NCBI GenBank assembly: GCA_004431415.1
Contig: QPMI01000038.1
Span: forward strand, 124,001-188,000
Direction of reading: 5' to 3'
Length of the DNA: 64,000 bases
Source of the DNA: Cyanophora paradoxa CCMP329
Taxonomy: Eukaryota; Plantae; Glaucophyta
Shown: one piece after another, positions 17,706 through 43,041 of the stretch
Layout: every line of letters begins with the position of its first letter
How positions within the stretch are numbered: position 1 is the stretch's first letter
Notes under the pieces: model-generated
The model's input: only the letters and a program-made list of their open reading frames with translations
What the model was told of the DNA's origin: nothing
Database searches by the model: none
Translations under genes and position numbers: made by a program

Positions 17706-19104
17706 CTGTGCACCCTGCTCTCGACTTGACACAGATGGACACCTCAGTTATATCTCTAGCCATTTGTCTCGGTGTGTGCGAATTCATTTACAGCGTGCAC
17801 CCTGCTCCCCGCCCCCTTCCCTCCCTCCGTTCCGCCCCCGCCACACCCCACGCCCGTGCGCCCCGCCTCCCTCCCCCCCCTCCCCCAGGGCCAAGACTCC
17901 GACAGATAGCTCCTAGCTAGGGCAGACAGAGCCTTCCCCCCCCCCCTCCCCCTCTCGCAGGGCCAAGGACCGACTCGACTCCACACCGCTCCCACATAAT
18001 AGCTCGCAGCTAGCTAGGGCAGGGTAGCACGACGCCTCCCCTCTATGCCGCAGAGCAGGTAGAGCAGTCGGACGGTGCCCCCCCAGTCAAACTTCTATGA
18101 CGGGGCGGTAATTGTTGTCCTTTTAATACGAAAATTGCCCGGGTGGGCTTTTTGAAAAAACTATAGAGAGAGAGCCTAGTCCCGTACCCCCGAAGTCCCC
18201 AGCTAGAGAGAGCCTATATATATATATATTTAGAGCGAGGAGGCGGCAATTTATGTGGGCCTGCCCGCATCTATAGGGGACCTTCAAGTAGTTCATCTAT
18301 ATGTCTTCAAAAAGGCTTAAGAGGCTGTAAAAAAGGCTCGTAAAAGTCTCAAGGGAGACTCTGAGAGGGCGCGCCTGCCGGAGGCGGCGAGGCCGGCGAC
18401 GAGGGCGACGACGAGGCCCCAAAGCATCCCCGGGACGTCCAGCGCCGCCTCTGCGAAAGAAGTCAAGGGGAAACTGTTAGTTAGATGCAGGTAGAGCTTA
18501 AAGCTCGAGGCTCAAGAGGAAGGTGGATGTAAGTTTAACGTTGCCTCAGAGAAGCTTAGAGAACGTCATTCAATTTTTGAAGAAGCGCATAGTATGCGAA
18601 GGGTGCGGCTCAAGGCTTAATGTCCAGCGCACCGGGGCCCTGGGCGTGGCCCAGTGGGCCGCTTGATAGCTGAAGCTTGAGCTTAAAGTCTTAGGGCTCA
18701 AGACAGCTCAAAGAAACTTAATTACAGCTTTGTAAGAGGACTTTCGTTGAAGAAACGAAGCGCACCGGGGCCCTGGGCGTGTGCCGTTTTGGGGCTTAAA
18801 GGGCTTATAATTAAACGCTTAAAGGGCTCAAGAGAGCGTAAAGAAGCTTCATTGAATAGACTTTTATCGAAGGAGCGCACCGGGGCCGTGGGCGTGCGCC
18901 GCGTCGGCGCCCTGAAGGCGGCCAGGAGGTTCCCGAAGCGGCTCTTCTTCGCCAGGGCGGCGAACGTTCGGCCCTTGAGCATCCCGGAGCCCCCCAGCTG
19001 GCCCAGCAGGGCGCCCCAGCCGCCCCCTGCGCGCCGTCCGTGCCGTCCGCGCCGTCCGACGGTCGCGAGCGCCAAGTCCATTCGGCTCTTCGCCGCGCGA
19101 CCCT

Positions 19105-19189
19105 ACACATAAAGAAATACAAATTTAAATCCCTCCGCTTCGCGCTTCGCGCTTCGCTCCTGGATTTAAATTTGTATTTCTTTATGTGT
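19105..19189. repeat. Left terminal hairpin (28-bp stem, 29-nt loop with 3x GCTTCGC)
   Basis: ACACATAAAGAAATACAAATTTAAATCC ... GGATTTAAATTTGTATTTCTTTATGTGT. Confidence 0.92.
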
Positions 19190-19543
19190 AAATTAATCGA
19201 AAATATTTAAAAAATAAATCAAAATTTTTAATAAAATCAATTAAATTTAAATAAATTCGATTAAATTAATTGGTATAATATCAATTAAATTATGATTTTA
19301 TGAAATTTATATATATTTTTGATAAATTACGTATTTCTCGATTGATTTAATGATATAAACGCGATTAATTTGTATTTAAATGAAAAATACGTATTTTGCG
19401 ATTGATATAAACGCGATTAATTTGTATTTTATGCAAAATCGATATAATCTCGATTGAGGGAACATAAATTTATGATATAATCAATCACGATTGAAGTAGT
19501 CCAGCGCCCATTCTATCGTAAAACGCAAAAATTCACACAGAGT

Positions 19544-20130
19544 TGCATTATGTCCAATTAAACAATCGATGAAATATCGGATGAAAATAATTCACTCGTT
19601 ACTGCATTATGTCCAATTAAACAATCGATGAAATATCGGATGAAAATAATTTACTCGTTAGTGCATTATGTCCAATTAAACAATCGATGAAATATCGGTT
19701 GAAAATAATTCACTCGTTACTGCATTATGTCCAATTAAACAATCGATGAAATATCGGATGAAAATAATTCACTCGTTACTGCATTATGTCCAATTAAACA
19801 ATCGATGAGATTGCGGCGTATTTTGTTGGATTAGATGGTTACTGCTTCACGTCCAATTAAACAATCGATGAGATTGCGGAAAACAAAAATGACCCCAGAG
19901 TTGCATTATGTCCAATTAAACAATCGATAAAATGGGATTCTGTTTTTTACTGTTATAAAATTGTATCTGTGGTGCATTATGTCCAATTAAATAATCGTTG
20001 AGATTGCTGTGATAAAAATAATGAAAAAGGGACACTGAGTTGCATTGCGTCCGATTAAACAATTGATAAAATGGGATTCTGTTTTTTACTGTTATAAAAT
20101 TGTATCTGTGCTGCATTATGTCCGATTGAG
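19544..20130 (+). repeat. Subterminal repeat array: 4 x 59-bp units plus degenerate TGCATTATGTCCAATTAAACAATCGAT cores
   Basis: Seen directly; the mirror copy at ~42170-42580 has only one full 59-bp unit. Confidence 0.9.
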
Positions 20131-20139
20131 ACACACCAT

Positions 20140-20781
20140 TTACCGTCTCATATTACGACGTCTACGTATTTCAACTTCTGAGAATGTCTTAAAAATCTTG
20201 CATAATTCATTTTCGTGATCTGTGACATACCACATTCGATAACGTGGCTCGTATTTAGCGCCTTGCTTCTTCATGTATTTCCGTAAAGATGATTGCAAGA
20301 AAATACGTTTTTGTTCGAATTCGGGTAATCTCAGTTTGATATCACCAACAAAGTATCGACGACGTACGATGTCGTAATAATTCGGCTCGAAAACCATAGG
20401 GTCTATCGTCGCAAACTCTTTTAAGAGACGATGGTATTTATCCTCGACATAATAATGTTTCACATCGTATGCCCATTTCGCACCGTATCGCTCGATCTTA
20501 TGCGCGTATTCCTCTGGATCTCCGATATCTAAGACATAAACACCGTAATAATCCTTCGGTTCTGTGGTTGATCCACCGTTATACACAAATGGCTCCATTT
20601 CTGGTCTTTTTATTATCATAGATGTTTTCCCTTTAAGTAGTTTGAAGGTTTTTATGGTTTTGAAGAAATCCACCACCCATTGTGTATGTTCTTTTATGAT
20701 ATGTTGAATTTCATGTAGTCTTTTTGTGGTTCTCGATTGGATACAATCTTTATTAATGGTATCTCTGTAAAAATGAAGCAT
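20140..20781 (-). CDS. Protein with two DUF5710-like repeats
   Basis: YGAKWAYDVKHYYV and QGAKYEPRYRMWYV resemble the GA(K/R)W-x5-WY motif. Confidence 0.6.
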   Translation of the reverse strand: MLHFYRDTINKDCIQSRTTKRLHEIQHIIKEHTQWVVDFFKTIKTFKLLKGKTSMIIKRPEMEPFVYNGGSTTEPKDYYGVYVLDIGDPEEYAHKIERYGAKWAYDVKHYYVEDKYHRLLKEFATIDPMVFEPNYYDIVRRRYFVGDIKLRLPEFEQKRIFLQSSLRKYMKKQGAKYEPRYRMWYVTDHENELCKIFKTFSEVEIRRRRNMRR

Positions 20782-20789
20782 TTCTCGTT

Positions 20790-21623
20790 TTAGTTTTGAT
20801 TCTTTTTAACCAAACCGCGATATACTCTAACCGAATTACCTTTGTATTTCATTACCGATGATTCAATCTTAAAGCGTTTCTTAATTATATTGCTTATCCC
20901 ACGTGATTCTACCCATATATCTTTGTCGATTAACTCTAAACAATGATTAAATATATCGCTACAACGGGTGAATTTACTGAGGTCGTTGGTTAAAGTGTAG
21001 CTCTCATTTATAAAATCACATACAATCGTCTCGATATCTTTCTCTTTTTCGTTTTTGGTCTCTGTTGTAGTTTGCGTTTCGATCTTCACGAGACCTTTGA
21101 AAACATAGAGCATCTCATCGTAAAACATCTGAGAAGTTGGATTTAAACCATTGAACACTTCACGAACTCGATAAAGAATATCAGACTCATCGAAATTTGG
21201 CGCATTGGAATTTTTTAACATTCCGAAAACATCGCCAAGTAGCACGTATTGAGGTGTGTATTTGCTTGAATCTCCGGAAAAAACATAATTGCATTCAAGG
21301 TAGTCATCTATAACCTCGTTCCAATCTATTGGCTCTTCTTCTGATTCCTCATATAGATTCTTTTTTATCATCTGACGAATTCGCGCCCTTGCTGAACGCA
21401 ACGAATCCAATTTGTAGTATTCGCCTTCACAACTCTCGAACTCTTTCTTACATAACTTCTCGATTAAGCGTGGATTGCTACAATAGATCCACTCATAAAT
21501 TGAAAAGTTGGGTAAAGCTCGTGAGTATTGAGAAATGAGATTACTTACCGAAACAGTTGAGACACCAATTTTATACTTATTGTTCGCTTGAAATTCCGGG
21601 ACTGATCCGATATAAACCGCCAT
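20790..21623 (-). CDS. T5orf172/MUG113 (GIY-YIG-like) domain fused to two D5-C-like winged-helix domains
   Basis: N-terminal VYIG...YKIG...IEK; C-terminal DFINESY...VRVYRGL resembles the helicase C-terminus. Confidence 0.65.
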   Translation of the reverse strand: MAVYIGSVPEFQANNKYKIGVSTVSVSNLISQYSRALPNFSIYEWIYCSNPRLIEKLCKKEFESCEGEYYKLDSLRSARARIRQMIKKNLYEESEEEPIDWNEVIDDYLECNYVFSGDSSKYTPQYVLLGDVFGMLKNSNAPNFDESDILYRVREVFNGLNPTSQMFYDEMLYVFKGLVKIETQTTTETKNEKEKDIETIVCDFINESYTLTNDLSKFTRCSDIFNHCLELIDKDIWVESRGISNIIKKRFKIESSVMKYKGNSVRVYRGLVKKNQN

Positions 21624-21718
21624 TATGTCGCTTTTTTATATATATATGAGTTGTCTTATCTTTAAGTGGGTTTTCTTTTGGAAATTGACCTTAAACGCAC
21701 TTAGACAGTGTCTTGTTT

Positions 21719-22024
21719 TTAGAGTATTAAGTTTCCTTCTTTGTCGTATTGATCATTTAACCACGTCTTTATAATGAGTTCTACACATGATCTTGTGGCT
21801 TCCAATGACTCAAAAAGAAAGAAATCGCCTTCATGCTCATAAAGGTCACATAAATGCTTCTTTACTAATCGTGGGTTTCTACATTTGAACCACCCGTAGA
21901 TTGAAAACGCTTTCGATGATTGCTTATTAATCACATCATTTACTGAATCGGTTGATGATAACCCGACTTTGTAAGTCTTGTAAGCAACCAACTCGGGTGT
22001 TGATCCGATATACAGAATATTCAT
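21719..22024 (-). CDS. T5orf172-like paralog (101 aa)
   Basis: LYIGSTPE...YKVGLS...IYGWFKCRNPRLVKK aligns with the N-terminus of the adjacent 277-aa ORF. Confidence 0.65.
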   Translation of the reverse strand: MNILYIGSTPELVAYKTYKVGLSSTDSVNDVINKQSSKAFSIYGWFKCRNPRLVKKHLCDLYEHEGDFFLFESLEATRSCVELIIKTWLNDQYDKEGNLIL

Positions 22025-22123
22025 GTTATGATTCTTTTATAATCAATGTCGCTTCTTCTTAAATCATCGCATGAGTTCGTAAGCCTCCTCATATCCGATC
22101 GTTTACTTACGATTGGGTTTTTT

Positions 22124-22432
22124 TGGGGCTGTTGGGCGTTATTGGGCGTTGTTGGGCACTTGTTGGGCACTTGTTGGGCACCTTTGGGCACTTTTTAATC
22201 CAAGGTCTAAAAGATTTCTTAGAATACATTTTCAAAATTCTAATTTCATTCAAAACATTTTTTTATATAGAAAAACTTTCTTAAAACGGTGCCCAAAGTG
22301 CCCAATGACATTTAAAAAGTGCCCAATGATAAAAGAAGTGCCCAATGAAACCACTTACTGTAATACAAATATTGTAGAGATATAGACCATCTTTAATGAA
22401 AAAAAGAAGCGTTCTAAATGAAGTGCCCAATG
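22124..22432. promoter_or_regulatory. Origin-like module A' (TTGGGCAC/GTGCCCAA iterons around an AT-rich core)
   Basis: Inverted near-identical copy of ~27850-28045; function inferred. Confidence 0.55.
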
Positions 22433-22537
22433 ACCATTTGTAGTAAGAAGAAGATTCAAAATCTACTTTTATATATAAATCTCTTACTCTCATAGATTTA
22501 AGGATAAAACGATAATATATATGAAAGTAAAACTACA

Positions 22538-22849
22538 ATGCCTCGTAAATCAAATCAGCAACTGATGGCGGAACAGAGAGGGGAAGTTTACATTATGCCT
22601 TGCAAAGTGACACCTGAAATGCTCTTTTTGAGACGTGAAAAGATTAGAGAATATAATCGGAAATTTTATGAAAAAGTCAAACAGAAACGAATGGAAGACG
22701 GTGAGCCAACAATCACGCCTCCGAATAGAATCGCAAATAGTAGCCGTTACCAAATGCAACGATACGCGGAAGATGAAGAGTTTCGCAATCGACAGCGTGA
22801 GAAATCACGAGAGTATTATAGAAACAAGAAAATCGCCAGATCTTCTTAA
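22538..22849 (+). CDS. Small basic coiled-coil protein
   Basis: Paralog of 24605-25030 (RKSNQ, RYAEDEEFR); TTTAAGG motif upstream. Confidence 0.75.
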   Translation: MPRKSNQQLMAEQRGEVYIMPCKVTPEMLFLRREKIREYNRKFYEKVKQKRMEDGEPTITPPNRIANSSRYQMQRYAEDEEFRNRQREKSREYYRNKKIARSS

Positions 22850-22934
22850 TGCGGAAACCATGAGACCGTGGGTTGTTCTTTCTCTGATGCCTTTATTTCA
22901 GTGAGTTAAGGCATTTTCTTACTATAAATGACTA

Positions 22935-23265
22935 TCAGGCACTTTTAGATTTATGATTGCACCACTAATATACTCGATCTTTTCACTATTTTAAGATTTC
23001 TCTTACTGTTTATGATCGTCAGGCACTTTTGAAATGTCATCAGGCATTTCAGGCACATTTTTAGGAAACTTTTTTTATAGAAAAAACAAAACACAATGAA
23101 ATTGAATTTTTAAAAACAAATTTAAGAAAGATTTTTTAGACTCTCGATTAAAAGCGCCTGAAAGTGCCTGACTGCCTGAAAAAAGTGCCTGTCAATCTGA
23201 AAATTACATATCGCTTTTTGTGATAAAGAGACTGAAAGCGTGTAGCGATCTGGGAAGTGCCTGAA
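22935..23265. promoter_or_regulatory. Origin-like module B (TCAGGCAC/GTGCCTGA iterons)
   Basis: 4-5 repeats per side around an AT-rich core related to module A. Confidence 0.55.
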
Positions 23266-23379
23266 AGTATGTAGTGGGAAGAAAAGGGACTTAAAAAATG
23301 ACACGTTATAGTAGTGATTATAGAGGTAGGATTCTACTACATTGTTTTAGAAACAACTACGGCTTGTTACTGTATATGG

Positions 23380-23650
23380 TCTGTCTGACATTCTGTTTTT
23401 TAAATCGCCACAAAATGAAAATTGTGGTCTTCTTTAATCATTCTCACTCTTACTGTAATATGGTTTGTCTGACACTTTCTTTTTCTTCTGACACTATTTA
23501 AATGTATTCTGACACTGTTGACACTGTTTTGAAAAGTTTTCTTAATAATGAATGATTTTATAAAATTTGAATTTAGAAAACACACTCCAAGAAATCTTTT
23601 TTTAAAACCTCGATTAAAAAAGTCAGACTGTCAAAACAAGCGTCAGATAG
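23380..23650. promoter_or_regulatory. Origin-like module C (TCTGACA/GTCAGA iterons)
   Basis: Same AAGAAATCTTTT...CCTCGATTAAAAA core flanked by inverted repeats. Confidence 0.5.
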
Positions 23651-23717
23651 TTGCAACAAGAAAGGGGCTTAAAAAAATGACACGTTATAGTAGTGATTAT
23701 AGAGGTAGGATTTAACA

Positions 23718-24035
23718 ATGGCGTGCGCTAATTTCTCTACTCACCTTCACGAACTGGGAGTTGATTTTACAGACTTACACTCAGAAAAACGAGATGAGAT
23801 ATTGAAGAAAACAGTTGAAGCACGAGCAAGATGTGAAGGATATAAACCAAGTCAGATACCGTCTAAATTAAAACGCATACTTGAAGAGAAAGCGATCTCC
23901 TCAATGACAAAAACATTTGAGAGTTTCGATCATGATGTAAGACACAGTGGTAATCGCTTACAGTTGAAACTAAGAAAGAAGATTGACAAACGAAACGAGG
24001 CAATAGTTCTTAGTTATCTTCTCGGTTTAATTTAG
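23718..24035 (+). CDS. Hypothetical protein (105 aa)
   Basis: ATG ORF intact in both arms; CTTAAA motif upstream. Confidence 0.65.
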   Translation: MACANFSTHLHELGVDFTDLHSEKRDEILKKTVEARARCEGYKPSQIPSKLKRILEEKAISSMTKTFESFDHDVRHSGNRLQLKLRKKIDKRNEAIVLSYLLGLI

Positions 24036-24088
24036 GATTATTTCCAAAAAAATAACAAAAAACATGAAATTACTGTATTATTTCTTTT

Positions 24089-24421
24089 TCAAACCCGTTT
24101 AGAAAGGTCATAAACTCGTTTTACTACACCATTGATCCTCCGAGTATATGCTGAAATTCCAAAAACCTTTTTTATACTCAAACCTAAAACTCGTGGTGAA
24201 ACCTTTGAATCTAAAACTTGCTGTATTTGACTGAGTAAGATATCAGCCGGGATATATTCGCCATTCTTACTTATATCGAAGCAATATAGGAGGAAATCGC
24301 AAAAAGTCATAGGTCTCTTAACTTCATCGCTTTGTATTGAATTATTATAATCGTCTTCTTCTTCATCATCATAAATCTCAATAACGTAATCTGAATCTGT
24401 TTCATCCGTTACATATTCCAT
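24089..24421 (-). CDS. Stand-alone D5-C-like winged-helix protein with acidic N-terminus
   Basis: DFLLYCFDI...SPRVLGLSIKKVFG...RRINGVVKRVY pattern matches D5/P4-alpha C-terminal wHTH. Confidence 0.6.
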   Translation of the reverse strand: MEYVTDETDSDYVIEIYDDEEEDDYNNSIQSDEVKRPMTFCDFLLYCFDISKNGEYIPADILLSQIQQVLDSKVSPRVLGLSIKKVFGISAYTRRINGVVKRVYDLSKRV

Positions 24422-24604
24422 TCTATACGTTACAGATACTGTTTTTATCCGTTACATTTTATGGATGTATTTTATTGATTTATTCGATGATTACTTCAAG
24501 GACGTAGCAAAAAATGACGCTTTCCGAACATCCAAAAAGTATTTAAGGATTTGGGAAGTAAGATAAGTGAAATAGATATTATCTTGCTCTTATATAAAGG
24601 AAAA

Positions 24605-25030
24605 ATGGTGAGAACTCGGAAATCAAACCAAGAGCTTATTGCTATGCAGAAGGGTGCAGACCTCCCACGTGTTGAAAAGAAACCTACGCTAACAGAGGAA
24701 GAATGGGAAGAAAAAGCAAAGTTGAGACGTGAGAAAGACCGTGAGAGGAAACGTATTGTTTATCAAAAGGTGAAAGAAGAGAGAATCGCAAAAGGTGAAA
24801 AGACTGCAACTCCTCCTGAGAAATTGGAAAAGATGGCTTTGTATGTTCAACGTCGATATGCAGAAGATGAAGAATTCCGAAAGAGAAGAAAAGAGATTGT
24901 CCGGAGGTATCTGGAACGGAAACGACTTGAAAAGGTTGATGAGAAAGAGGCAATTAAGAAAACCGGACGTCCTCGTAAATACAATGCTTGTAATCCCGAT
25001 ACATCATCGGAAAGTATCGTAGCGAATTGA
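24605..25030 (+). CDS. Basic coiled-coil protein with AT-hook
   Basis: TGRPRKY AT-hook; paralog of 22538-22849; ATG at 24605 preferred to the upstream TTG. Confidence 0.75.
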   Translation: MVRTRKSNQELIAMQKGADLPRVEKKPTLTEEEWEEKAKLRREKDRERKRIVYQKVKEERIAKGEKTATPPEKLEKMALYVQRRYAEDEEFRKRRKEIVRRYLERKRLEKVDEKEAIKKTGRPRKYNACNPDTSSESIVAN

Positions 25031-25204
25031 TCGATCAGAGGTGAAAAAAATGACACTTAACTTTCTCCTTTTTTATAACCTAAGGCTAATCATTATAGTG
25101 CCGTGGGCAACCAAAAAGCATTTAAGGACTTCACAATAAGAACCAGTAAAGGGAATTCATCAATTTCCTCAGATTAATTTCTCTGAGAAAGGTAAGAATC
25201 CAAG

Positions 25205-27592
25205 ATGTTTAACGCCAAGCAACCCAACGCATCTGATATAACCCTCTCCGAGAAGGCTAACCGTCATGTCCTTAAATACCTGATCGAAAACTTTGATGAG
25301 TTGAAGTATCGCCCACAAGTCGATCCAACCGCCACTCTGACGCTTCTAAACAAATACTTTAAGAGTTTGAACCGAAGTGATCGCATCACTGTTAAATATC
25401 GCCAATGCTCACACAACACCGGGCGCTATTACTCTAACGTTCGAAACATAAAGAAAAAACAGGTTTCGATGCAAGAGATGCCCCGTGAATTTCGACACAC
25501 ACTTGCCCGTGAAAACTATATTGATATCGATATGATTAACGCTCACCCAACGCTTCTTATCCAATATTGTAAAAAAAATGAAATCGCATGCAACGCTCTT
25601 GCTAATTACGTTGAAAATCGCGACTCTATCATCGCCGATATAATCGAGAAATCGAGACTCACTCGTGAAGACATTAAACGTGCATTCCTTTCTGTTATTA
25701 ACGGCGGCGACGGAACTGACAACGAAGCTCTTCTCAATCACCCCGATTTCAAAAAATTAAAAGAGGAAATGGCTGGTATTCATGCTCTTATCGCAAACAT
25801 ACCCGAAAACAAAAACTACCTACTCATCTGCAAGAAGAAGAAAGACCACAACATCCTCGGTTCGGTAGTTAATATGGTTCTCTGTAATATCGAGAATCAA
25901 TGCCTCATGGCTCTTTGTGAGTATCTCACTTCACTGGGTATTAAGGTTGGAGTTCTCGTTTTCGATGGTTGTATGATTGAGAAAGACCCAAAATTTCCGG
26001 AAGAGCGTGTTGCATCCATCTTGAAGGAAGCATCGGAATATATCGAAAACACAATCGGTTATAAGGTTGGATTGCTGATTAAACCGATGGATCAAGGATT
26101 TGAAATCCCCGCAAATTTGGATGAAGGAATTCCTCTCTGCCGGGTAATTATCGACGATTCACATGCTGCCTCATTATTCGTTAATGATATCGAGGGGCAA
26201 ATCATCAAATGTGACGGTCGTATTTTCGCCCGGAAGGACGACAGCCTATGGACTGAGGATACGAAATTGGTGAAGGGAATTCTCTTAAAATTGTGCATGC
26301 AAGCGCATTTCGTGAAAGAAGACGCAAAAGGGAACCTGAGATCATATTCCGGTGAAACACCAAATGCTAAAAGAATCATCGAAGCTGTAATCCCTCTCCT
26401 TCCCAATCGTCAGAATTTCTACGAGGAGTTATGGAGTTCTACCATTGGGAAAATATGCTATCAGAACGGAGTGTATGATTTCAAGACAAAGAAGCTTACA
26501 CCGTGGAAGGATTGTAAGAATGTTTACTCGACTACTCGAATCTCTCGTGACCTTCCCGTGGATGATAACGGCTACATTCTCAAACCATCCGATGCTGATA
26601 TTCAGACTCTCTACGATAAAGTTCTTGAACCCGTTTTCGGTGCCGAAAGTGTAACGTCCGCTCTTGAATTTACGGCTCGTGCGGTTGCGGGTTGTTATGA
26701 AGATAAGCAATGGGGACTATCGGTGGGTGAACGTAATTGTGGAAAGGGGGTTTACGTCAATCTTCAAGAGAACACATGGGGCGATTATGTCCACACCATA
26801 AGCGGTGAGTCTTTCCTCTTAAACAAAAGCGTAGACGATAATGATACATCGAAATTGAAGTGGATGAAGCCATGTGAATTCCGTCGTTTGACTTTCACAC
26901 AAGAGATGAAATTCGATGTTTCAAACACCAATATCAAATTGAACGGCGCTATGATCAAAAAGAAGGAATCAGGTGGTGATATGCAATGTATGCGTGTTCT
27001 GTATGAGAATGAGGTTAACATTCGACTTCAAAGTCGTATATGGATGATCATGAATGATGTGCCGCCCGTCTCACCTTCTGATACACTCCAAACCATGGTA
27101 TTATTCAAGCATCCCCACAAATTCGTCGATCAGAAAACAGTTGAAGAGATGAATAGCCCGTGTTTCCGTTTGGCGTCAGAAGACATTAAAAGCGATCTGC
27201 TGCGACGTCCTGAAATTATTCACGCCTTTGAATACATGGTTTTCGAAGCCTTCAAGTCACAGAAGTTTGTGGTATCGGGGAAGATCGCCGAAGACGTAAG
27301 CGAGTTTCGTGAAGATGCGGGCGACGAAATGCAAATAATTAAAAGCGCATTCGAATTCACCCGTGATCCTTCCGATGCTGTATCAAGCAAAACAGTCGTT
27401 GATAAATTGAAGGAACTTAAACTTAACATGTCCGCGAATCGTATTAAAAGCGTTATGGTGTTGATGGGCGCTACATATAGTAAAGCTGCTATTCGAAAGG
27501 GAAATACAGCTACTTATGAACGAGGATATAAGGGCGTTAAATTGATCTCTACTACCCGATTTGTAGATGATGATGACGATGTCGAAGCGTAA
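25205..27592 (+). CDS. TVpol (PolA-family primase-polymerase) fused to D5-like SF3 helicase, 795 aa
   Basis: GRYY; motif A YIDIDMINAHP; motif B REDIKRAFLSVING; motif C VLVFDG; D5_N-like YQNGVYD; Walker A GERNCGKG; Walker B-like LTFTQE; sensor MIMND; C-terminal wHTH. Confidence 0.88.
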   Translation: MFNAKQPNASDITLSEKANRHVLKYLIENFDELKYRPQVDPTATLTLLNKYFKSLNRSDRITVKYRQCSHNTGRYYSNVRNIKKKQVSMQEMPREFRHTLARENYIDIDMINAHPTLLIQYCKKNEIACNALANYVENRDSIIADIIEKSRLTREDIKRAFLSVINGGDGTDNEALLNHPDFKKLKEEMAGIHALIANIPENKNYLLICKKKKDHNILGSVVNMVLCNIENQCLMALCEYLTSLGIKVGVLVFDGCMIEKDPKFPEERVASILKEASEYIENTIGYKVGLLIKPMDQGFEIPANLDEGIPLCRVIIDDSHAASLFVNDIEGQIIKCDGRIFARKDDSLWTEDTKLVKGILLKLCMQAHFVKEDAKGNLRSYSGETPNAKRIIEAVIPLLPNRQNFYEELWSSTIGKICYQNGVYDFKTKKLTPWKDCKNVYSTTRISRDLPVDDNGYILKPSDADIQTLYDKVLEPVFGAESVTSALEFTARAVAGCYEDKQWGLSVGERNCGKGVYVNLQENTWGDYVHTISGESFLLNKSVDDNDTSKLKWMKPCEFRRLTFTQEMKFDVSNTNIKLNGAMIKKKESGGDMQCMRVLYENEVNIRLQSRIWMIMNDVPPVSPSDTLQTMVLFKHPHKFVDQKTVEEMNSPCFRLASEDIKSDLLRRPEIIHAFEYMVFEAFKSQKFVVSGKIAEDVSEFREDAGDEMQIIKSAFEFTRDPSDAVSSKTVVDKLKELKLNMSANRIKSVMVLMGATYSKAAIRKGNTATYERGYKGVKLISTTRFVDDDDDVEA

Positions 27593-27659
27593 CTCTTGAT
27601 ATTAAACAGAGCATTCGTATTTTTTATAAATCGTAAGAGGTTTTTCTTACTGTTTAAGG

Positions 27660-28060
27660 TCGTTGGGCACTTCTTTTTTTACATATGTTACTCTTTCGAA
27701 AAGATGGTTTATATCTGTTCTATACCTATATTACTGTTTATGGTTTCATTGGGCACTTCTTTTATCATTGGGCACTTCTTTTTTTACATATGTTACTCTT
27801 TCGAAAAGATGGTTTATATCTGTTCTATACCTATATTACTGTTTATGGTTTCATTGGGCACTTCTTTTATCGTTGGGCACTTTTTAAATGTCATTGGGCA
27901 CTTTGGGCACCGTTTTAAGAAAGTTTTTCTATATAAAAAAATGTTTTGAATGAAATTAGAATTTTGAAAATGTATTCTAAGAAATCTTTTAGACCTTGGA
28001 TTAAAAAGTGCCCAAAGGTGCCCAACAAGTGCCCAACAGTGCCCAAAAAAATGCCCAATG
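27660..28060. promoter_or_regulatory. Origin-like module A directly downstream of the helicase gene, including a ~105-bp tandem duplication
   Basis: 7 TTGGGCAC then 4-5 GTGCCCAA copies around a ~95-bp AT-rich core. Confidence 0.6.
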
Positions 28061-28157
28061 GTTAAAGTAAAAACGTTGCTTCAAATCACATTTGATAATG
28101 CATCACATATACGAGAATGTTTACAAAAACAATTAATAAAATCACTCACCGAGCGTT

Positions 28158-28910
28158 TCACTCTGATTTATACGATTCCAAAAAGACCCACTCGAAACTG
28201 TGGATAATCTCGATACGATTCATTATATCTAAATGGGACATATACGGTTGCATACCAAAAACTGTGTTTCGCATGAAAGATACCAAACCTCCCCAATCAC
28301 CACGTTTTGCATAATCTTGATACATTTTATTATTTTGTTTGAAGGTGAGAGCATCATAAATGGCTTTCATCGTTTCATTAAGTGTCATTTTGTAAGAAAG
28401 CGGTCTCAAAATCTTATCGTACAACTCACTTATGTTAATTTCACACGGTTTTACGATCTTTCCCGTTTCATCTACAACGAGATCGCGAGATATACAATAA
28501 AAAGCATAGATTCCTTCACATTTATCCCATGCTATAAGTCTCTTTGTTTCTATATCGTAGACGCCGTTTTGATAACATAGTTTACCAATCGTAGACGGTC
28601 TCATAACCTGTTTATAAAAGTCGTTTCGATCTTCAAGAATCGCTTTTGAGATCTTAATGACCTTTTGAGCATTCGTTAAATTATGTGTATAACGGAGAAT
28701 CTCACCTTTACTGTTCTTCTTGTAGACATTCAAACGCATACATAGTTTGAGCATCGCTTGATTAATGAACGCTACATTATTCGTCCATAGGTGGTTATTT
28801 TGTTTAGTGTAAATGACACCATCAGATAGTATAAACTTGCCGTCGAGATCTTTTACAAACAATTCCGCGGCTTCATAATCGGAAGAGGCAAACACGAGAG
28901 ATTCCGACAT
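28158..28910 (-). CDS. Truncated helicase paralog (D5_N region; no polymerase, no P-loop)
   Basis: STIGKLCYQNGVYD, ISRDLVVD and EIIHSFE match STIGKICYQNGVYD, ISRDLPVD and EIIHAFE of the 795-aa protein. Confidence 0.85.
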   Translation of the reverse strand: MSESLVFASSDYEAAELFVKDLDGKFILSDGVIYTKQNNHLWTNNVAFINQAMLKLCMRLNVYKKNSKGEILRYTHNLTNAQKVIKISKAILEDRNDFYKQVMRPSTIGKLCYQNGVYDIETKRLIAWDKCEGIYAFYCISRDLVVDETGKIVKPCEINISELYDKILRPLSYKMTLNETMKAIYDALTFKQNNKMYQDYAKRGDWGGLVSFMRNTVFGMQPYMSHLDIMNRIEIIHSFEWVFLESYKSE

Positions 28911-29001
28911 GTTTCTTATTTTATTTCAAAGGTGCTTTTTCTTTAAATAGGAAAAAAGCACTTAAAGACATGTTAACTCTTATAATAAAACGAATCATCA
29001 G

Positions 29002-29733
29002 ATGGATTGTGTCATTTGTTTGAACAAGCTGAACCCAAAGAAGGCTACCAAACTCGAATGTGGTCACAAATTCTGTAAGAAGTGTTTTGATGATTGGGAT
29101 AAAGCGAATGTATCAAAGTATGATCTCCTACCAATTTGTAAAGGTAAACCGTTTTGTGATTCAGATGACGCTTTTTTAATTAATCTTTCTCTGTCGAAAG
29201 CATGGGTAAGTTGTCCTCTCTGTAAACAAGATCACACTTATATGAATTGGGAGACTTTCCATGGTAAGAAGAAGAAACCCGTTTTAAAGAAAGTGATATG
29301 TAAGATTTGGTTCGCTAAGGAGGACTGCGGCAATGTAGACGCTTGTGATCTTATCACAGATCAGAGACATTTAATAAAGTATATACCACTGAGCGATAGG
29401 AAATTAATGAAAGAGGGGAAAGATCCAAAATACGACCATTCGTATAATGTGATTACCTATTTTGAGAAATGCATAGCTGAACACGAAACAGACATACACA
29501 TGAATAACTGTATGTGTAATGATAAGAAATGTAGCAAAATATTCCCTGTGTCTGCGAAAGAGTGCAATTGTCTTAATCATACAACCCCTTGGGATTTCGA
29601 GAATTGGCTAAAAACATTTAATCCCGACTCGAAAGATTGGATGGATAGAATGACATTCTATAACAAAACTAAATATCACATCTCTACGGGTCAATTGAGA
29701 ATGCGAACGCGTGAGAACACCGCAAATTCATAA
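29002..29733 (+). CDS. RING-finger (C3HC4) protein, putative E3 ligase
   Basis: CVIC...CGHKFCKKC...(long insert)...CPLC; extra C-terminal Cys cluster. Confidence 0.8.
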   Translation: MDCVICLNKLNPKKATKLECGHKFCKKCFDDWDKANVSKYDLLPICKGKPFCDSDDAFLINLSLSKAWVSCPLCKQDHTYMNWETFHGKKKKPVLKKVICKIWFAKEDCGNVDACDLITDQRHLIKYIPLSDRKLMKEGKDPKYDHSYNVITYFEKCIAEHETDIHMNNCMCNDKKCSKIFPVSAKECNCLNHTTPWDFENWLKTFNPDSKDWMDRMTFYNKTKYHISTGQLRMRTRENTANS

Positions 29734-29891
29734 CATGTCCCTCTTTCAAACGCACTTTAATATGGGTCTTTTTTTTACAAACCTTCACAGAAATGTGTGG
29801 TTTTGCTTCACAGAACCGTGTAGGTTTATGTTTCGATCTACGCAAACAGCTACAATGTCCTGTATAGGTAGTTTTGAAAAATAAAGCGTTT

Positions 29892-30434
29892 TCACTCTTT
29901 CCTGTTCCGATAACATTCGCATTCTGAAAGAAATGACCTTAATATTAACTTCCTTATTGCGTCGCGACCTTCCCAATTGTTGTGATCTTTACCAAAAAGT
30001 TTGACAAAGTCTAAGATATGGATAAACTCAGGACGTGATACATAATTAGGTAAATCAAACGGCTCCGTTTCTATTTCCCAATAATTCACTTTGTAGAAAT
30101 ATAACAAACCGTCAGATCCCTTAGCATAATGTATATCGGGATTCTCCGTAAAATATCCGATTTGCTCAATTTTCCAGCGTCTCGCGACTATTATGTCGCT
30201 ATTATCTAATTCATTCATAAACATAATCAATCTATCGACATTGATTTTGATTAAGGAAGAATTAACTGAAAACACGGGTTTTCCGTCGTAAATATACGGC
30301 GTCTCCATCATTGCAATCAATCTTAGCACAGCGTTAGGATGTCTCCCATGCCGCTTAAATGGCTTCATTTTTTGCCCGCTCAAAAAATGAAACCATAACC
30401 TGTAATGCAACGCTCCGTTATGCAACGCATCCAT
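29892..30434 (-). CDS. Hypothetical protein (180 aa)
   Basis: ATG ORF, mirrored at 31883 with a late frameshift. Confidence 0.65.
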   Translation of the reverse strand: MDALHNGALHYRLWFHFLSGQKMKPFKRHGRHPNAVLRLIAMMETPYIYDGKPVFSVNSSLIKINVDRLIMFMNELDNSDIIVARRWKIEQIGYFTENPDIHYAKGSDGLLYFYKVNYWEIETEPFDLPNYVSRPEFIHILDFVKLFGKDHNNWEGRDAIRKLILRSFLSECECYRNRKE

Positions 30435-30607
30435 TTATGGTCGAATCTAATGATGCTACATATGTATTCGTCGAAAAAGAGAATTTACATTATGTTGCTC
30501 ATTGAAAACCTTAATATACTCTCTTTTTCCGGCTTACTAAAATAACAAATCCACTTTATGTGTGAAAAATCATTTAAAGTTAAAATAATAGACATTTCCA
30601 ATGTAAG

Positions 30608-31750
30608 ATGCCTTTAAAATTAACAAAAGAAAGTTTTATAGAAAAAGCGAAAACTGTCCATGGGGATGCATATGGATACGATGAAGTTATTTATGAACAT
30701 AGTTTAAGTGAAGTCACAATTTACTGCAAAGTATGTAATGCGTATTTCACCCAACTTCCTGTAAATCATTTAAGAAAAAAGGGGTGCCGAATGTGTGCAA
30801 TACAAAAACGAGCCTCTGCAAATCGTAATGAATTACATGATTTAATAAGTAAAGCTCAAAGAATTCATGGAGACAAATATGATTATTCCATGATCGAAAA
30901 GTATGAAGGGATGACAAAACACGTTAGCATTCTTTGTAAAACATGTAAAACAGAGTTTAAACAGACATTATCATGTCATATAAACTACAAATTTGGATGT
31001 AGAAAATGTGGACATGCAAAAAAAAGCAAAGAGTCCCGAATACCTATAACAGAAGTTTTAGAACGTTTTAGATCTCAGCATGGAGAAAAGTATGATTACA
31101 CACATGTGCAATTTGAAAAGACAAGTGATGTTATAAACATCTTCTGCAAAACATGTAATGAGAGTTTTAAGCAAAGAGTCGATTCACATTTTAAAACAGG
31201 TTGCCGAAAATGCGGTAATAAACAAAATGGGCTTAACTGTCGCTCCACACAGGAAGAAGTTATTAAACGTTTTGAGACAATCCATAATGGGGCTTTCGAC
31301 TATTCTTTGGTAAAATATCAGACCACAAAAACCAAAGTAAAAATAATATGCAAAAAATGTAATTGTATTTTTGAACAGACGCCGTCTAACCACTTTAAAA
31401 GAGGCTGTCCTAATTGCAAAGTTTCACATGGGGAAAGAAAAGTGAAACAGGTCTTAGACTCTTATAACTTTGATTACTTGCAACAGTTTAGTTTTCAGGA
31501 TTGTAGGTATAAATTACCTTTGAGATTCGATTTTTATATAACCTCTTTGCGAATTGCAATTGAATATGACGGAGAACAACATAGGAAAATTGTCAATTTT
31601 TTTGGAGGTAAAGAAGCATTTGAGGAAACACAAAAGCGGGATGGTATCAAAAACAGATACTGTGAGATCAACAATATCAAACTTTTGAGAATACCACACA
31701 CTGAAAAAGAAATAAAGGCGACTATTGACTTATTCTTAAAAACCCTCTAA
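30608..31750 (+). CDS. Endonuclease: four DUF723-like Zn-ribbon repeats plus C-terminal Vsr/DUF559-like PD-(D/E)XK domain
   Basis: 4x HG-x-x-(Y/F)-(D/G)-Y...CKxC...F-x-Q...H...GC-x-x-C; SHGE...FDFY...IEYDGEQH...D-x-x-KN-x-YC...LLRIP, an architecture known from giant-virus and phage putative homing endonucleases. Confidence 0.85.
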   Translation: MPLKLTKESFIEKAKTVHGDAYGYDEVIYEHSLSEVTIYCKVCNAYFTQLPVNHLRKKGCRMCAIQKRASANRNELHDLISKAQRIHGDKYDYSMIEKYEGMTKHVSILCKTCKTEFKQTLSCHINYKFGCRKCGHAKKSKESRIPITEVLERFRSQHGEKYDYTHVQFEKTSDVINIFCKTCNESFKQRVDSHFKTGCRKCGNKQNGLNCRSTQEEVIKRFETIHNGAFDYSLVKYQTTKTKVKIICKKCNCIFEQTPSNHFKRGCPNCKVSHGERKVKQVLDSYNFDYLQQFSFQDCRYKLPLRFDFYITSLRIAIEYDGEQHRKIVNFFGGKEAFEETQKRDGIKNRYCEINNIKLLRIPHTEKEIKATIDLFLKTL

Positions 31751-31882
31751 AAGACACATAAAGTGGATTTGTTATTTTAGTAAGCCGGAAAAAGAGAGTA
31801 TATTAAGGTTTTCAATGAGCAACATAATGTAAATTCTCTTTTTCGACGAATACATATGTAGCATCATTAGATTCGACCATAA

Positions 31883-32425
31883 ATGGATGCGTTGCATAAC
31901 GGAGCGTTGCATTACAGGTTATGGTTTCATTTTTTGAGCGGGCAAAAAATGAAACCATTTAAGCGGCATGGGAGACATCCTAACGCTGTGCTAAGATTGA
32001 TTGCAATGATGGAGACGCCGTATATTTACGACGGAAAACCCGTGTTTTCAGTTAATTCTTCCTTAATCAAAATCAATGTCGATAGATTGATTATGTTTAT
32101 GAATGAATTAGATAATAGCGACATAATAGTCGCGAGACGCTGGAAAATTGAGCAAATCGGATATTTTACGGAGAATCCCGATATACATTATGCTAAGGGA
32201 TCTGACGGTTTGTTATATTTCTACAAAGTGAATTATTGGGAAATAGAAACGGAGCCGTTTGATTTACCTAATTATGTATCACGTCCTGAGTTTATCCATA
32301 TCTTAGACTTTGTCAAACTTTTTGGTAAAGATCACAACAATTGGAAGGTCGCGACGCAATAAGGAAGTTAATATTAAGGTCATTTCTTTCAGAATGCGAA
32401 TGTTATCGGAACAGGAAAGAGTGAA
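31883..32425 (+). CDS. Mirror copy of the 180-aa hypothetical protein (1-nt deletion near 32345)
   Basis: Identical up to KDHNNW. Confidence 0.6.
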
Positions 32426-32581
32426 AACGCTTTATTTTTCAAAACTACCTATACAGGACATTGTAGCTGTTTGCGTAGATCGAAACATAAACCTACACGG
32501 TTCTGTGAAGCAAAACCACACATTTCTGTGAAGGTTTGTAAAAAAAGACCCATATTAAAGTGCGTTTGAAAGAGGGACATG

Positions 32582-33312
32582 TTATGAATTTGCGGTGTTC
32601 TCACGCGTTCGCATTCTCAATTGACCCGTAGAGATGTGATATTTAGTTTTGTTATAGAATGTCATTCTATCCATCCAATCTTTCGAGTCGGGATTAAATG
32701 TTTTTAGCCAATTCTCGAAATCCCAAGGGTTGTATGATTAAGACAATTGCACTCTTTCGCAGACACAGGGAATATTTTGCTACATTTCTTATCATTACAC
32801 ATACAGTTATTCATGTGTATGTCTGTTTCGTGTTCAGCTATGCATTTCTCAAAATAGGTAATCACATTATACGAATGGTCGTATTTTGGATCTTTCCCCT
32901 CTTTCATTAATTTCCTATCGCTCAGTGGTATATACTTTATTAAATGTCTCTGATCTGTGATAAGATCACAAGCGTCTACATTGCCGCAGTCCTCCTTAGC
33001 GAACCAAATCTTACATATCACTTTCTTTAAAACGGGTTTCTTCTTCTTACCATGGAAAGTCTCCCAATTCATATAAGTGTGATCTTGTTTACAGAGAGGA
33101 CAACTTACCCATGCTTTCGACAGAGAAAGATTAATTAAAAAAGCGTCATCTGAATCACAAAACGGTTTACCTTTACAAATTGGTAGGAGATCATACTTTG
33201 ATACATTCGCTTTATCCCAATCATCAAAACACTTCTTACAGAATTTGTGACCACATTCGAGTTTGGTAGCCTTCTTTGGGTTCAGCTTGTTCAAACAAAT
33301 GACACAATCCAT
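32582..33312 (-). CDS. Mirror copy of the RING protein (frameshift near 32728)
   Basis: Identical up to LNHTT. Confidence 0.75.
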
Positions 33313-33405
33313 CTCTGATGATTCGTTTTATTATAAGAGTTAACATGTCTTTAAGTGCTTTTTTCCTATTTAAAGAAAAAGCACCTTTGAAATAAAATAA
33401 GAAAC

Positions 33406-34158
33406 ATGTCGGAATCTCTCGTGTTTGCCTCTTCCGATTATGAAGCCGCGGAATTGTTTGTAAAAGATCTCGACGGCAAGTTTATACTATCTGATGGTGT
33501 CATTTACACTAAACAAAATAACCACCTATGGACGAATAATGTAGCGTTCATTAATCAAGCGATGCTCAAACTATGTATGCGTTTGAATGTCTACAAGAAG
33601 AACAGTAAAGGTGAGATTCTCCGTTATACACATAATTTAACGAATGCTCAAAAGGTCATTAAGATCTCAAAAGCGATTCTTGAAGATCGAAACGACTTTT
33701 ATAAACAGGTTATGAGACCGTCTACGATTGGTAAACTATGTTATCAAAACGGCGTCTACGATATAGAAACAAAGAGACTTATAGCATGGGATAAATGTGA
33801 AGGAATCTATGCTTTTTATTGTATATCTCGCGATCTCGTTGTAGATGAAACGGGAAAGATCGTAAAACCGTGTGAAATTAACATAAGTGAGTTGTACGAT
33901 AAGATTTTGAGACCGCTTTCTTACAAAATGACACTTAATGAAACGATGAAAGCCATTTATGATGCTCTCACCTTCAAACAAAATAATAAAATGTATCAAG
34001 ATTATGCAAAACGTGGTGATTGGGGAGGTTTGGTATCTTTCATGCGAAACACAGTTTTTGGTATGCAACCGTATATGTCCCATTTAGATATAATGAATCG
34101 TATCGAGATTATCCACAGTTTCGAGTGGGTCTTTTTGGAATCGTATAAATCAGAGTGA
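33406..34158 (+). CDS. Mirror copy of the truncated helicase paralog
   Basis: Identical 250 aa. Confidence 0.85.
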   Translation: MSESLVFASSDYEAAELFVKDLDGKFILSDGVIYTKQNNHLWTNNVAFINQAMLKLCMRLNVYKKNSKGEILRYTHNLTNAQKVIKISKAILEDRNDFYKQVMRPSTIGKLCYQNGVYDIETKRLIAWDKCEGIYAFYCISRDLVVDETGKIVKPCEINISELYDKILRPLSYKMTLNETMKAIYDALTFKQNNKMYQDYAKRGDWGGLVSFMRNTVFGMQPYMSHLDIMNRIEIIHSFEWVFLESYKSE

Positions 34159-34719
34159 AACGCTCGGTGAGTGATTTTATTAATTGTTTTTGTAAACATT
34201 CTCGTATATGTGATGCATTATCAAATGTGATTTGAAGCAACGTTTTTACTTTAACCATTGGGCATTTTTTTGGGCACTGTTGGGCACTTGTTGGGCACCT
34301 TTGGGCACTTTTTAATCCAAGGTCTAAAAGATTTCTTAGAATACATTTTCAAAATTCTAATTTCATTCAAAACATTTTTTATATAGAAAAACTTTCTTAA
34401 AACGGTGCCCAAAGTGCCCAATGACATTTAAAAAGTGCCCAACGATAAAAGAAGTGCCCAATGAAACCATAAACAGTAATATAGGTATAGAACAGATATA
34501 AACCATCTTTTCGAAAGAGTAACATATGTAAAAAAGAAGTGCCCAATGATAAAAGAAGTGCCAATGAAACCATAAACAGTAATATAGGTATAGAACAGAT
34601 ATAAACCATCTTTTCGAAAGAGTAACATATGTAAAAAAAGAAGTGCCCAACGACCTTAAACAGTAAGAAAACCTCTTACGATTTATAAAAAATACGAATG
34701 CTCTGTTTAATATCAAGAG

Positions 34720-38221: not shown

Positions 38222-38274
38222 AAAAGAAATAATACAGTAATTTCATGTTTTTTGTTATTTTTTTGGAAATAATC

Positions 38275-41511: not shown

Positions 41512-41519
41512 AACGAGAA

Positions 41520-42934: not shown

Positions 42935-43041
42935 ACACATAAAGAAATACAAATTTAAATCCTGAGCGACAGAGCGAAATGAGCGCGAAGCGCGAATTGA
43001 GCGATAGAGCGAGGGATTTAAATTTGTATTTCTTTATGTGT
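42935..43041. repeat. Right terminal hairpin (28-bp stem, 51-nt GAGCG-rich loop)
   Basis: Same 28-bp stem at 42935-42962 and 43014-43041. Confidence 0.92.

What the first reader, a model, noticed from the sequence alone, without database searches (positions are those of the whole stretch)
30554..31763. Inner arm boundaries repeat the outer terminus: composite-transposon-like capture of a single-gene cassette
Seen: arm identity stops exactly at CTTTATGTGT (30554-30563) and resumes at ACACATAAAG (31754-31763), the same 10-mer as the outer ends. The 1190-bp spacer holds one gene with 44 bp of leader and 3 bp after the stop. No TSD at the inner junctions. Inference: each arm is a unit with its own ends and the pair moved together around cargo, as in Tn5/Tn10; or the inner sites are initiation/template-switch points that generate the palindrome, making the centre an exchangeable or invertible slot.
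Basis: partly seen in the sequence, partly recalled or inferred. Interest (0 to 1): 0.85.

Follow-up and report, generated by a model that had tools for sequence, protein, structure and literature searches.

The report
Integrated snap-back virophage-like satellite
This is a 24-kb virus-like element inserted in a eukaryotic genome, made of two identical 11-kb arms facing each other around one nuclease-like gene; it likely arose when a small DNA virus folded back on itself at an internal look-alike of its own end sequence, and is likely not two transposons carrying cargo.

Summary
Observation confirmed: arm identity ends exactly at a 10-mer (30554-30563, 31754-31763) that also forms the element's outer ends. 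The composite-transposon reading is not supported. The whole 23,937-bp unit (19105-43041) has one 6-bp target duplication. Its outer ends are 28-bp-stem hairpin caps, which the inner ends lack (only the last 10 bases match). The arms encode a PolA-fold/SF3-helicase replicase of virophage/Polinton-like-virus type; no integrase, transposase or capsid gene was found. In contigs of 7 public runs arm:centre depth is 1.9-2.6, and in 4 of 4 runs examined closely nothing but the centre follows the inner 10-mer. Relatives in the same runs leave the shared sequence inside the 10-mer. Best reading: a capsid-less snap-back derivative, formed as a free molecule and integrated whole by a helper integrase. 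The fold-back point is the best copy of the terminal motif in the arm, so the end-processing enzyme likely cut there and joined that end just behind the nuclease gene. One such event gives arm-centre-arm with no inner duplication. That step is inferred, not shown; no parent genome was found.

The parts
19099..19104 (+). Left copy of the 6-bp target-site duplication (GACCCT)
   Evidence: only k=6 of k=3-11 matches between the two outer flanks
19105..19189 (.). Left hairpin cap: perfect 28-bp stem, 29-nt GC-rich loop; holds the 10-mer at both ends
   Evidence: z about -12 against 200 shuffles
19105..30563 (+). Left arm, 11,459 bp
19544..19879 (.). Subterminal tandem repeats of 59 bp; three more units than in the right arm (177-bp gap)
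20140..20781 (-). 213-aa ORF, weak DUF5710 match (below the Pfam cut-off)
20790..21623 (-). 277-aa ORF, paralogue of the 101-aa ORF at 21719-22024; GIY-YIG/T5orf172-like by recalled motif only, no library hit
22538..25030 (.). Four small ORFs (103, 105, 110, 141 aa); the 103- and 141-aa ones are paralogues; no library hit
25205..27592 (+). 795-aa replicase: N-terminal family-A polymerase fold plus D5-like SF3 helicase (TVpol/PolA-S3H type)
   Evidence: helicase part; N-terminal model pLDDT 93.8; all listed hits are family-A polymerases, best E 2e-6; D107, D109, D254 invariant in 100 rows
28158..28910 (-). 250-aa partial paralogue of the replicase's middle region (40% identity over 186 aa)
29002..29733 (+). 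243-aa RING-finger protein
29892..30434 (-). 180-aa ORF of unknown function; a relative in 4 of 4 runs skips 29845-30428
30456..30557 (.). Intergenic module shared with related elements in the same runs, which leave it at 30489 or 30557; in run X18 part of it is a direct repeat around 1403 other bases
30554..30563 (+). Inner 10-mer equal to the 3' terminal 10 bases of the element; proposed cryptic end
30564..31753 (.). Unique 1190-bp centre (loop of the palindrome)
30608..31750 (+). 380-aa zinc-ribbon-repeat protein, homing-endonuclease-like (DUF4379; PHROG 559 E 1e-73, PHROG 9084 E 2e-31; 5933 of 7039 candidates are homologues)
31754..31763 (-). Second inner 10-mer; proposed new joint, 3 bp behind the stop codon
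31754..43041 (-). Right arm, 11,288 bp; inverted copy of the left arm with 5 mismatches, 18 one-base gaps (all in homopolymer runs of 3 or more, likely assembly errors), one 2-base gap, the repeat-number difference and the cap-loop differences
42935..43041 (.). Right hairpin cap: same 28-bp stem, 51-nt loop
43042..43047 (+). Right copy of the 6-bp target-site duplication

Best explanation
The 24-kb element is likely a capsid-less snap-back derivative of a hairpin-ended virophage or Polinton-like virus, inserted as one unit with a 6-bp target duplication, and its fold-back point was likely set by a cut at an internal copy of its own terminal 10-mer. SHOWN: arms, caps, TSD, replicase fold, no detected capsid or integrase gene, 2:1 depth, no other sequence after the inner 10-mer. 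INFERRED, step by step: (1) the free genome has 3' fold-back ends, and the strand joined to host DNA ends in ...CTTTATGTGT-3' (both outer joints lie directly after this motif). (2) In a parent of the form cap-A-C-B-cap, the end-processing enzyme (a helper rve integrase or a terminal nickase) cut after the same 10-mer at the A/C border. (3) That 3' end was joined to the opposite strand just behind the stop codon of C. One strand then reads A, reverse C, reverse A; B (which would hold capsid and integrase genes) is lost. This needs only one chance site, no homology at the target and leaves no inner TSD. (4) Copying by the retained replicase gave a molecule with two normal ends and a virophage-like length, which a helper then integrated. 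The left inner junction would be parental and the right one new.
For: TSD only at the outer ends. All six copies of the motif lie at a structural border, and four of the six 3' ends are joints to host DNA or to the centre. The inner site is the best terminal match in arm plus centre; chance at a named boundary about 2e-6. Arms have 5 mismatches in 11.3 kb, as expected from one recent copying event or continual homogenisation. Arm:centre depth 1.89-2.62 in 8 measurements on 7 runs; no loose end at 30563 in 4 of 4 runs. Replicase is PolA-fold plus SF3 helicase; full-length relatives lie next to a Sputnik-type capsid gene (L008) and next to rve integrase and A32 ATPase genes (L061). Terminal palindromes next to TSDs in virophages/PLVs with non-pPolB replicases are described in 10.64898/2026.07.28.741278. 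A second cap in the window (16032-16315) keeps a 28-bp stem and the last 7 terminal bases, so that motif is the conserved end. The centre gene has the YTTAARG upstream motif found before 7 of 12 ORFs, against 0.05 expected per 90-bp stretch (motif chosen by eye). A relative that leaves at 30557 has TATGTG followed by GAAAT about 20 bases further on, resembling the left junction (chance about 0.009, post hoc).
Against: No parent cap-A-C-B-cap molecule was found; none of the 160 replicase-bearing loci has a match to the other arm genes except the replicase paralogue, so the virophage/PLV origin rests on the replicase, ends, TSD, GC and accessory gene types. No enzyme for steps 2-3 is encoded; the rve gene in the flank is only a candidate. 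Relatives in the same runs lack the full 10-mer at this place (only its first four bases are kept), so it is not a conserved family site, and its first bases come from an ordinary intergenic module. A distant capsid-less relative (IMGVR_UViG_3300025892_003161, 24% identity) has 3,634-bp gene-bearing inverted ends whose border motif is not found at the contig ends, so long arms can form without an end-like border. The end-like match is one event; a 10-base match has about a 5% chance of existing somewhere. The sequence cannot tell strand transfer from nick-and-rejoin or from template switching.
Confidence: 0.55

Rival explanations
1. Same kind of element, but the palindrome arose by ordinary template switching, end joining or recombination at a short inverted repeat or at the repeated intergenic module; the match to the terminus is incidental.
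For: The module ending at 30557 is repeated in relatives, once as a direct repeat around 1403 bases in run X18. The distant long-arm relative has a border unrelated to its assembled ends. AAV snap-back genomes with loops are ascribed to template switching or NHEJ (PMC8235507, passages).
Against: Leaves a 2e-6 coincidence at the border unexplained. The border lies 6 bases beyond the end of the shared module, exactly at the terminal 3' base.
Confidence: 0.22
2. Composite transposon: two 11.4-kb units, each bounded by the 10-mer as a short inverted repeat, inserted on both sides of a cargo gene and then moved together.
For: Each arm does begin and end with the inverted 10-mer; the pair has one outer TSD.
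Against: No transposase or integrase detected in the arm. Inner ends lack the cap and subterminal region. No solo arm or other neighbour at the inner end in 4 of 4 runs; depth about 2:1 in 7 runs. No direct or split TSD at the inner junctions. The centre gene looks native (motif; GC 32% against 36% for the element).
Confidence: 0.07
3. The centre is a self-mobile nuclease cassette with short TG...CA-type ends that inserted at the tip of an earlier perfect palindrome.
For: The gene is homing-endonuclease-like. Read inwards, the borders are TA-TGTGT...ACACA-TA.
Against: Centre depth is half the arm depth, so no further copies elsewhere. 0 of 4 viral contigs with a homologue have this motif in the same arrangement within 400 bp; their longest inverted matches are 6-12 AT-rich bases (one flank only 17 bp). 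It still needs a palindrome to exist first.
Confidence: 0.07
4. Long gene-bearing arms around a swappable centre are the normal design of a capsid-less PolA-S3H replicon family, with the 10-mer as a programmed exchange site.
For: An 18-kb contig with 3.6-kb arms, a related replicase and no Pfam capsid hit exists. Relatives differ in gene content beside the junction.
Against: No second centre between the same 10-mers in 4 of 4 runs; relatives break inside or before the 10-mer. Only 1 of 167 loci shows an inverted repeat of 300 bp or more (many loci are too short to show one).
Confidence: 0.07
5. The giant palindrome is an assembly artefact.
For: The right arm has 18 one-base gaps in homopolymer runs, typical of noisy long-read consensus.
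Against: Both inner junctions in one contig in 4 of 4 runs, depth 2:1; matching TSD on both outer flanks; the arms differ in repeat number and cap loop.
Confidence: 0.02

Closest known systems
Endogenous virophages and PLV subtype 4 of Halocafeteria seosinensis with terminal palindromes (bioRxiv 10.64898/2026.07.28.741278; passages and section 7 read)
   Same: Low-GC insert of about 24 kb; palindromes at the tips next to a TSD; non-pPolB replicase (PolA-S3H is among those listed); RING and nuclease genes; fragments that keep TIRs and TSDs after loss of core genes are mentioned.
   Different: There TIRs average 485-808 bp and capsid, ATPase and integrase genes are present in complete copies. 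Here 95% of the element is inverted repeat, none of these genes was detected, and the tips are a 28-bp stem with a 29-51-nt loop.
TVpol/PolA-S3H virophages and PLVs (Sputnik, PgVV/Gezel-14T; PMC4642659, PMC12220804, 10.1101/2022.07.28.501842; passages read)
   Same: Replicase architecture; 6-bp TSD as made by rve integrases (PMC12220804); nuclease accessory genes.
   Different: No morphogenesis or integration module detected. TIRs are 0.2-2.3 kb in EMALEs (PMC8547959), and the cryptophyte survey kept only TIRs of 100 bp-8 kb, so an 11.3-kb arm would have been filtered out there.
Asymmetric snap-back genomes of adeno-associated virus (PMC8235507; passages read)
   Same: Self-complementary sub-genome that keeps one end region and the replication gene side, with a single-stranded loop, dependent on a helper.
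   Different: Five times larger, double-stranded and integrated with a TSD; the turn lies at a copy of the terminal sequence, which the passages read do not report for AAV.
Transpovirons (PMC11161782; passages read)
   Same: Capsid-less replicons derived from PLVs by loss of the structural module.
   Different: All described transpovirons encode pPolB-S1H; this element encodes PolA-S3H and has hairpin caps.
Composite transposons Tn5/Tn10 (recalled, not looked up)
   Same: Two inverted copies around a central gene, one outer TSD.
   Different: There the arms are complete IS elements with a transposase and functional inner ends, and also occur alone; none of this is met here.

Membership tests
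Composite transposon (Tn5/Tn10 type) | Arms encode a transposase | tested here: not met
   No hit in Pfam or PHROGs for the 11 arm ORFs tested; only 7 stop-to-stop frames of 150 aa or more in the arm. A very divergent small protein cannot be excluded.
Composite transposon (Tn5/Tn10 type) | Inner ends are full copies of the outer ends | tested here: not met
   10 terminal bases only; 12 of 28 stem positions; no hairpin
Composite transposon (Tn5/Tn10 type) | Arms also occur alone or around other cargo | tested here: not met
   Depth 1.89-2.62 in 7 runs; no loose end at 30563 in 4 of 4 runs. Contigs drop rare variants, and no whole genome was held.
Composite transposon (Tn5/Tn10 type) | One TSD around the whole unit | tested here: met
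   GACCCT on both sides
Virophage / Polinton-like virus (complete) | Major capsid protein, minor capsid protein and packaging ATPase genes | tested here: not met
   No hit; besides the replicase and the nuclease no frame exceeds 281 aa
Virophage / Polinton-like virus (complete) | Replicase of a known type (PolA-S3H) | tested here: met
   relatives in capsid-bearing contigs
Virophage / Polinton-like virus (complete) | Low-GC insert of 14-40 kb with TIRs and 5-6-bp TSD | tested here: met
   23.9 kb, 36% GC against 58-73% in the distant flanks, 6-bp TSD
Virophage / Polinton-like virus (complete) | Own integrase (rve or tyrosine recombinase) | tested here: not met
   None in the element; an rve gene lies outside it at 12605-13726
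Hairpin-ended virophages/PLVs (Halocafeteria type) | Palindrome at each tip, adjacent to the TSD | tested here: met
   28-bp stems at both tips, directly next to the TSD; the loop is longer than the 10-nt gap limit used in that preprint
Hairpin-ended virophages/PLVs (Halocafeteria type) | Free genome with fold-back ends that prime replication | not testable with these tools
   Also untested in the preprint
Transpoviron | pPolB-S1H replication protein | tested here: not met
   PolA fold plus SF3 helicase instead (definition from PMC11161782)
Snap-back defective genome | Self-complementary genome with both ends from one side of the parent and a central loop | tested here: met
   95% palindromic, 1190-bp loop
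Snap-back defective genome | A full-length parent with the same arm exists | tested here: inconclusive
   Relatives share 28950-30557 in part, but none was recovered whole; searches of viral and metagenome contigs found only distant replicases

The most novel reading that the evidence does not exclude
Hairpin-ended virophages make their own satellites: the end-processing enzyme cuts at an internal look-alike of the terminus, and one strand transfer replaces the capsid half by a mirror copy of the replicase half. The product has two working ends, a doubled replicase dose and full genome length, so a helper can package and integrate it. The inner border would then be a natural footprint of the enzyme's minimal cut site (10 bases, cut after ...TATGTGT), which is otherwise unknown for these viruses.
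Probability: 0.35. Interest if true: 0.72.

Novelty: new variant of a known kind. Interest (0 to 1): 0.52.

Why it matters
How hairpin-tipped virophages and Polinton-like viruses open, copy and integrate their ends is untested. An internal joint at exactly the base where the outer ends join host DNA would point to the cut site and its minimal sequence, and gives a ready substrate pair (cap against inner site) for an assay. A replicase-bearing, capsid-less, genome-length palindrome is also a candidate defective-interfering satellite of these anti-giant-virus elements, and would be missed by surveys that need a capsid gene or cap TIR length at 8 kb. If the border match is chance, the element remains an unusual but explicable fold-back remnant.

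Tried and rejected
No whole genome is held for this window, so solo arms and empty sites could be sought only in run contigs. No RNA holder was listed; this says nothing on expression. The single replicase found no relative in viral contigs; the alignment did. The 28-bp cap stem had 0 matches in viral contigs. The 25-base inner module had 0 matches in metagenome contigs. A 19-base version gave 3 viral contigs with only 19-21-base matches there and no protein match, treated as chance. The flanking rve protein found no relative in viral contigs. ESM Atlas gave no hit of 0.9 or more for the 180-aa and 213-aa ORFs. A profile search of the replicase N-terminus against PDB sequences found nothing under E 0.05; only the fold search identified it. 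Intramolecular replicative transposition in place was rejected because it predicts a split TSD, and the outer TSD is intact with no copy at the centre. Cassette orientation in reads could not be tested: all 20 holders are short contigs and the arms are 11 kb. Look-ups of earlier findings by place, sequence and one word set gave nothing. The MIGE literature was only seen as a search listing and is not used.

Full report
OBSERVATION. The arms 19105-30563 and 31754-43041 are inverted copies whose identity stops at the last base of a 10-mer on each side of a unique 1190-bp centre. The centre holds one 380-aa ORF with 44 bp of leader and 3 bp behind the stop. There is no direct repeat of 2-9 bp at the inner junctions. 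The 10-mer occurs six times in the window, but only one internal occurrence is independent. Its chance at a named border is about 2e-6 and about 0.05 anywhere in arm plus centre; it is the best 3'-anchored match to the terminus there.

THE WHOLE ELEMENT. The unit is 23,937 bp, 36% GC, in a host region of 58-73% GC rich in nested mobile elements. It is flanked by a 6-bp duplication, GACCCT. Each outer end is a cap: a perfect 28-bp stem with a GC-rich loop of 29 or 51 nt, so the 10-mer stands twice at each end. The inner sites share only the last 10 bases of that stem (12 of 28 positions overall) and do not fold (z 0.9 and 0.5). The arms differ by 5 mismatches, three 59-bp repeat units, the cap loops, one 2-base gap and 18 one-base gaps. 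All 18 lie in homopolymer runs, and the three that fall in the stretch laid are not listed as deletions in the run contigs, so they are likely assembly errors.

GENES. The arm's largest gene is a 795-aa replicase. Its C-terminal part matches D5-type SF3 helicases. Its N-terminal 305 aa fold with pLDDT 93.8 and match family-A polymerases. This is the TVpol/PolA-S3H fusion of Sputnik-type virophages and some Polinton-like viruses (PMC4642659 and PMC12220804, passages). Of six loci with a related replicase whose ORFs were scanned (48 ORFs), one has a Sputnik-type capsid gene (L008), one has rve integrase and A32 ATPase genes (L061), one is a giant-virus-like fragment (L020), and three gave no such hit. 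The other arm genes are a RING protein, a partial replicase paralogue and small ORFs without library hits. No capsid, ATPase, integrase or transposase was detected. The centre gene is a zinc-ribbon-repeat, homing-endonuclease-like protein of a very large family. It has the upstream motif YTTAARG seen before 7 of 12 element ORFs (motif picked by eye), which argues that it is a native gene.

PUBLIC RUNS. Twenty runs of one organism hold 91-94% of the words of 21800-31760 (18 studies, one may be the source). Seven were laid. One 1250-bp contig spans both inner junctions in 4 of 4 runs. Arm-specific depth over centre depth is 1.89-2.62 in eight measurements; these depths are flat contig means and only a rough guide. 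In the narrow test no loose end lies at 30563 in 4 of 4 runs: no solo arm and no other cargo is seen at this border. Related elements are present at higher depth over 28950-30557. They leave the shared sequence at 30489 (4 of 4 runs) or at 30557, four bases into the 10-mer (loose end in 3 of 4 runs; in X18 a 1477-bp contig carries this module as a direct repeat around 1403 other bases). The sequence that follows 30557 in the relative contains TATGTG then GAAAT about 20 bases on, which resembles the left junction here (chance about 0.009, post hoc). This is a weak hint that the left junction is parental.

MECHANISM. Both outer joints to host DNA lie directly after the 3' end of the 10-mer, and so do both inner joints to the centre. 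The ends resemble the terminal palindromes next to TSDs that a 2026 preprint describes for virophages and PLVs with non-pPolB replicases and proposes as fold-back primers (10.64898/2026.07.28.741278; passages and section 7 read). The simplest account is inferred. In a parent cap-A-C-B-cap, the enzyme that processes the ends cut after the look-alike at the A/C border and the freed 3' end was joined to the opposite strand just behind C. That strand reads A, reverse C, reverse A. Copying yields the observed palindrome with two normal ends and no B. One chance site suffices, no homology is needed at the target, and no inner TSD is made. The intact outer TSD shows that the palindrome existed before it was inserted. 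A 6-bp TSD is the mark of rve integrases (PMC12220804), which must have acted in trans. The length equals that of complete virophages (about 24 kb in the preprint), which would suit a helper capsid; this is inference. I put 0.9 on virophage/PLV origin and whole-unit insertion, 0.8 on fold-back over two separate units, and 0.55 on the full account including the end-directed cut.

AGAINST. No parent was found. None of the 160 replicase-bearing loci matches another arm gene except the replicase paralogue. No enzyme for the cut is encoded. A distant capsid-less relative, IMGVR_UViG_3300025892_003161, has 3,634-bp perfect inverted ends that begin a few bases behind its replicase stop; its border motif is not at the contig ends, which may be incomplete. 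It was the only one of 167 loci with an inverted repeat of 300 bp or more (many loci are short). Ordinary template switching or end joining, as proposed for AAV snap-back genomes (PMC8235507, passages), therefore remains a serious rival at about 0.22.

COMPARISON AND NOVELTY. It works like a snap-back defective genome of a hairpin-ended virophage or PLV. It is not a complete member of those groups (no capsid, no integrase), not a transpoviron (wrong replicase; PMC11161782, passages) and not a composite transposon. Published TIRs are far shorter: 0.2-2.3 kb in EMALEs (PMC8547959, passages), and one survey kept only 100 bp-8 kb. Seven full-text searches listed no paper whose title or abstract start describes a replicase-bearing giant palindrome of this kind or a border at a terminal motif; most listed papers were seen only as listings, subscription journals are not covered, and I read no supplementary tables, where long-TIR copies may be recorded. 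Unchecked notes of this scan report gene-less palindromic Maverick derivatives and hairpin-tipped viruses in other genomes, so whole-element palindromes seem recurrent; I did not test those. The labels GIY-YIG-like and the Tn5/Tn10 features are recalled, not from a call.

VERDICT. Real feature, accurately seen, partly misread. New variant of a known kind; interest 0.52.

Noticed in passing
window 16032-16315: A second cap of the same build: perfect 28-bp stem starting ACACATA, 228-bp loop, preceded by 1.3 kb of AT-rich DNA from about 14748. Likely the right end of a diverged family member; shows that the last 7 terminal bases are conserved.
   Followed up: partly
window 11479-13726 and 44226-46139: An rve integrase gene, 27% identical to the integrase of virophage-like contig L061, apparently split by an insertion at about 11740-12590 with a short duplication. 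12831-14747 is repeated directly at 44226-46139, on the other side of the element.
   Followed up: partly
L062 / L168 / L169 (IMGVR_UViG_3300025892_003161): 18-kb, 21% GC contig with 3,634-bp perfect inverted ends that carry genes (one looks like a tyrosine recombinase by recalled motifs, no Pfam hit), a 1238-aa replicase relative and no Pfam capsid hit. Possibly a second capsid-less long-arm replicon.
   Followed up: partly
L001 1-70; L050 17108-17171; L035 3645-3712: Perfect palindromes of 64-70 bp in viral contigs with a related replicase; those of L001 and L050 are at contig ends and may be hairpin tips or assembly turn-backs.
   Followed up: no
window 42963-43013 and 19133-19161: The cap loops are strand-biased: purine-rich with repeated GAGCGA / GCGAAGC units on the strand that ends at each 3' terminus. 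GCGAAGC is recalled as a very stable DNA mini-hairpin.
   Followed up: no
window 28950-30560: Related elements in the same runs share this zone in mosaic fashion, at up to ten times the depth of the centre; one skips the 180-aa gene, another has a direct repeat of the module around 1403 bases.
   Followed up: partly
window 6540-9804 and 16888-17699: Retrotransposon RNase H and integrase frames upstream, and an 800-bp GC-rich tandem array of about 26-bp units.
   Followed up: no
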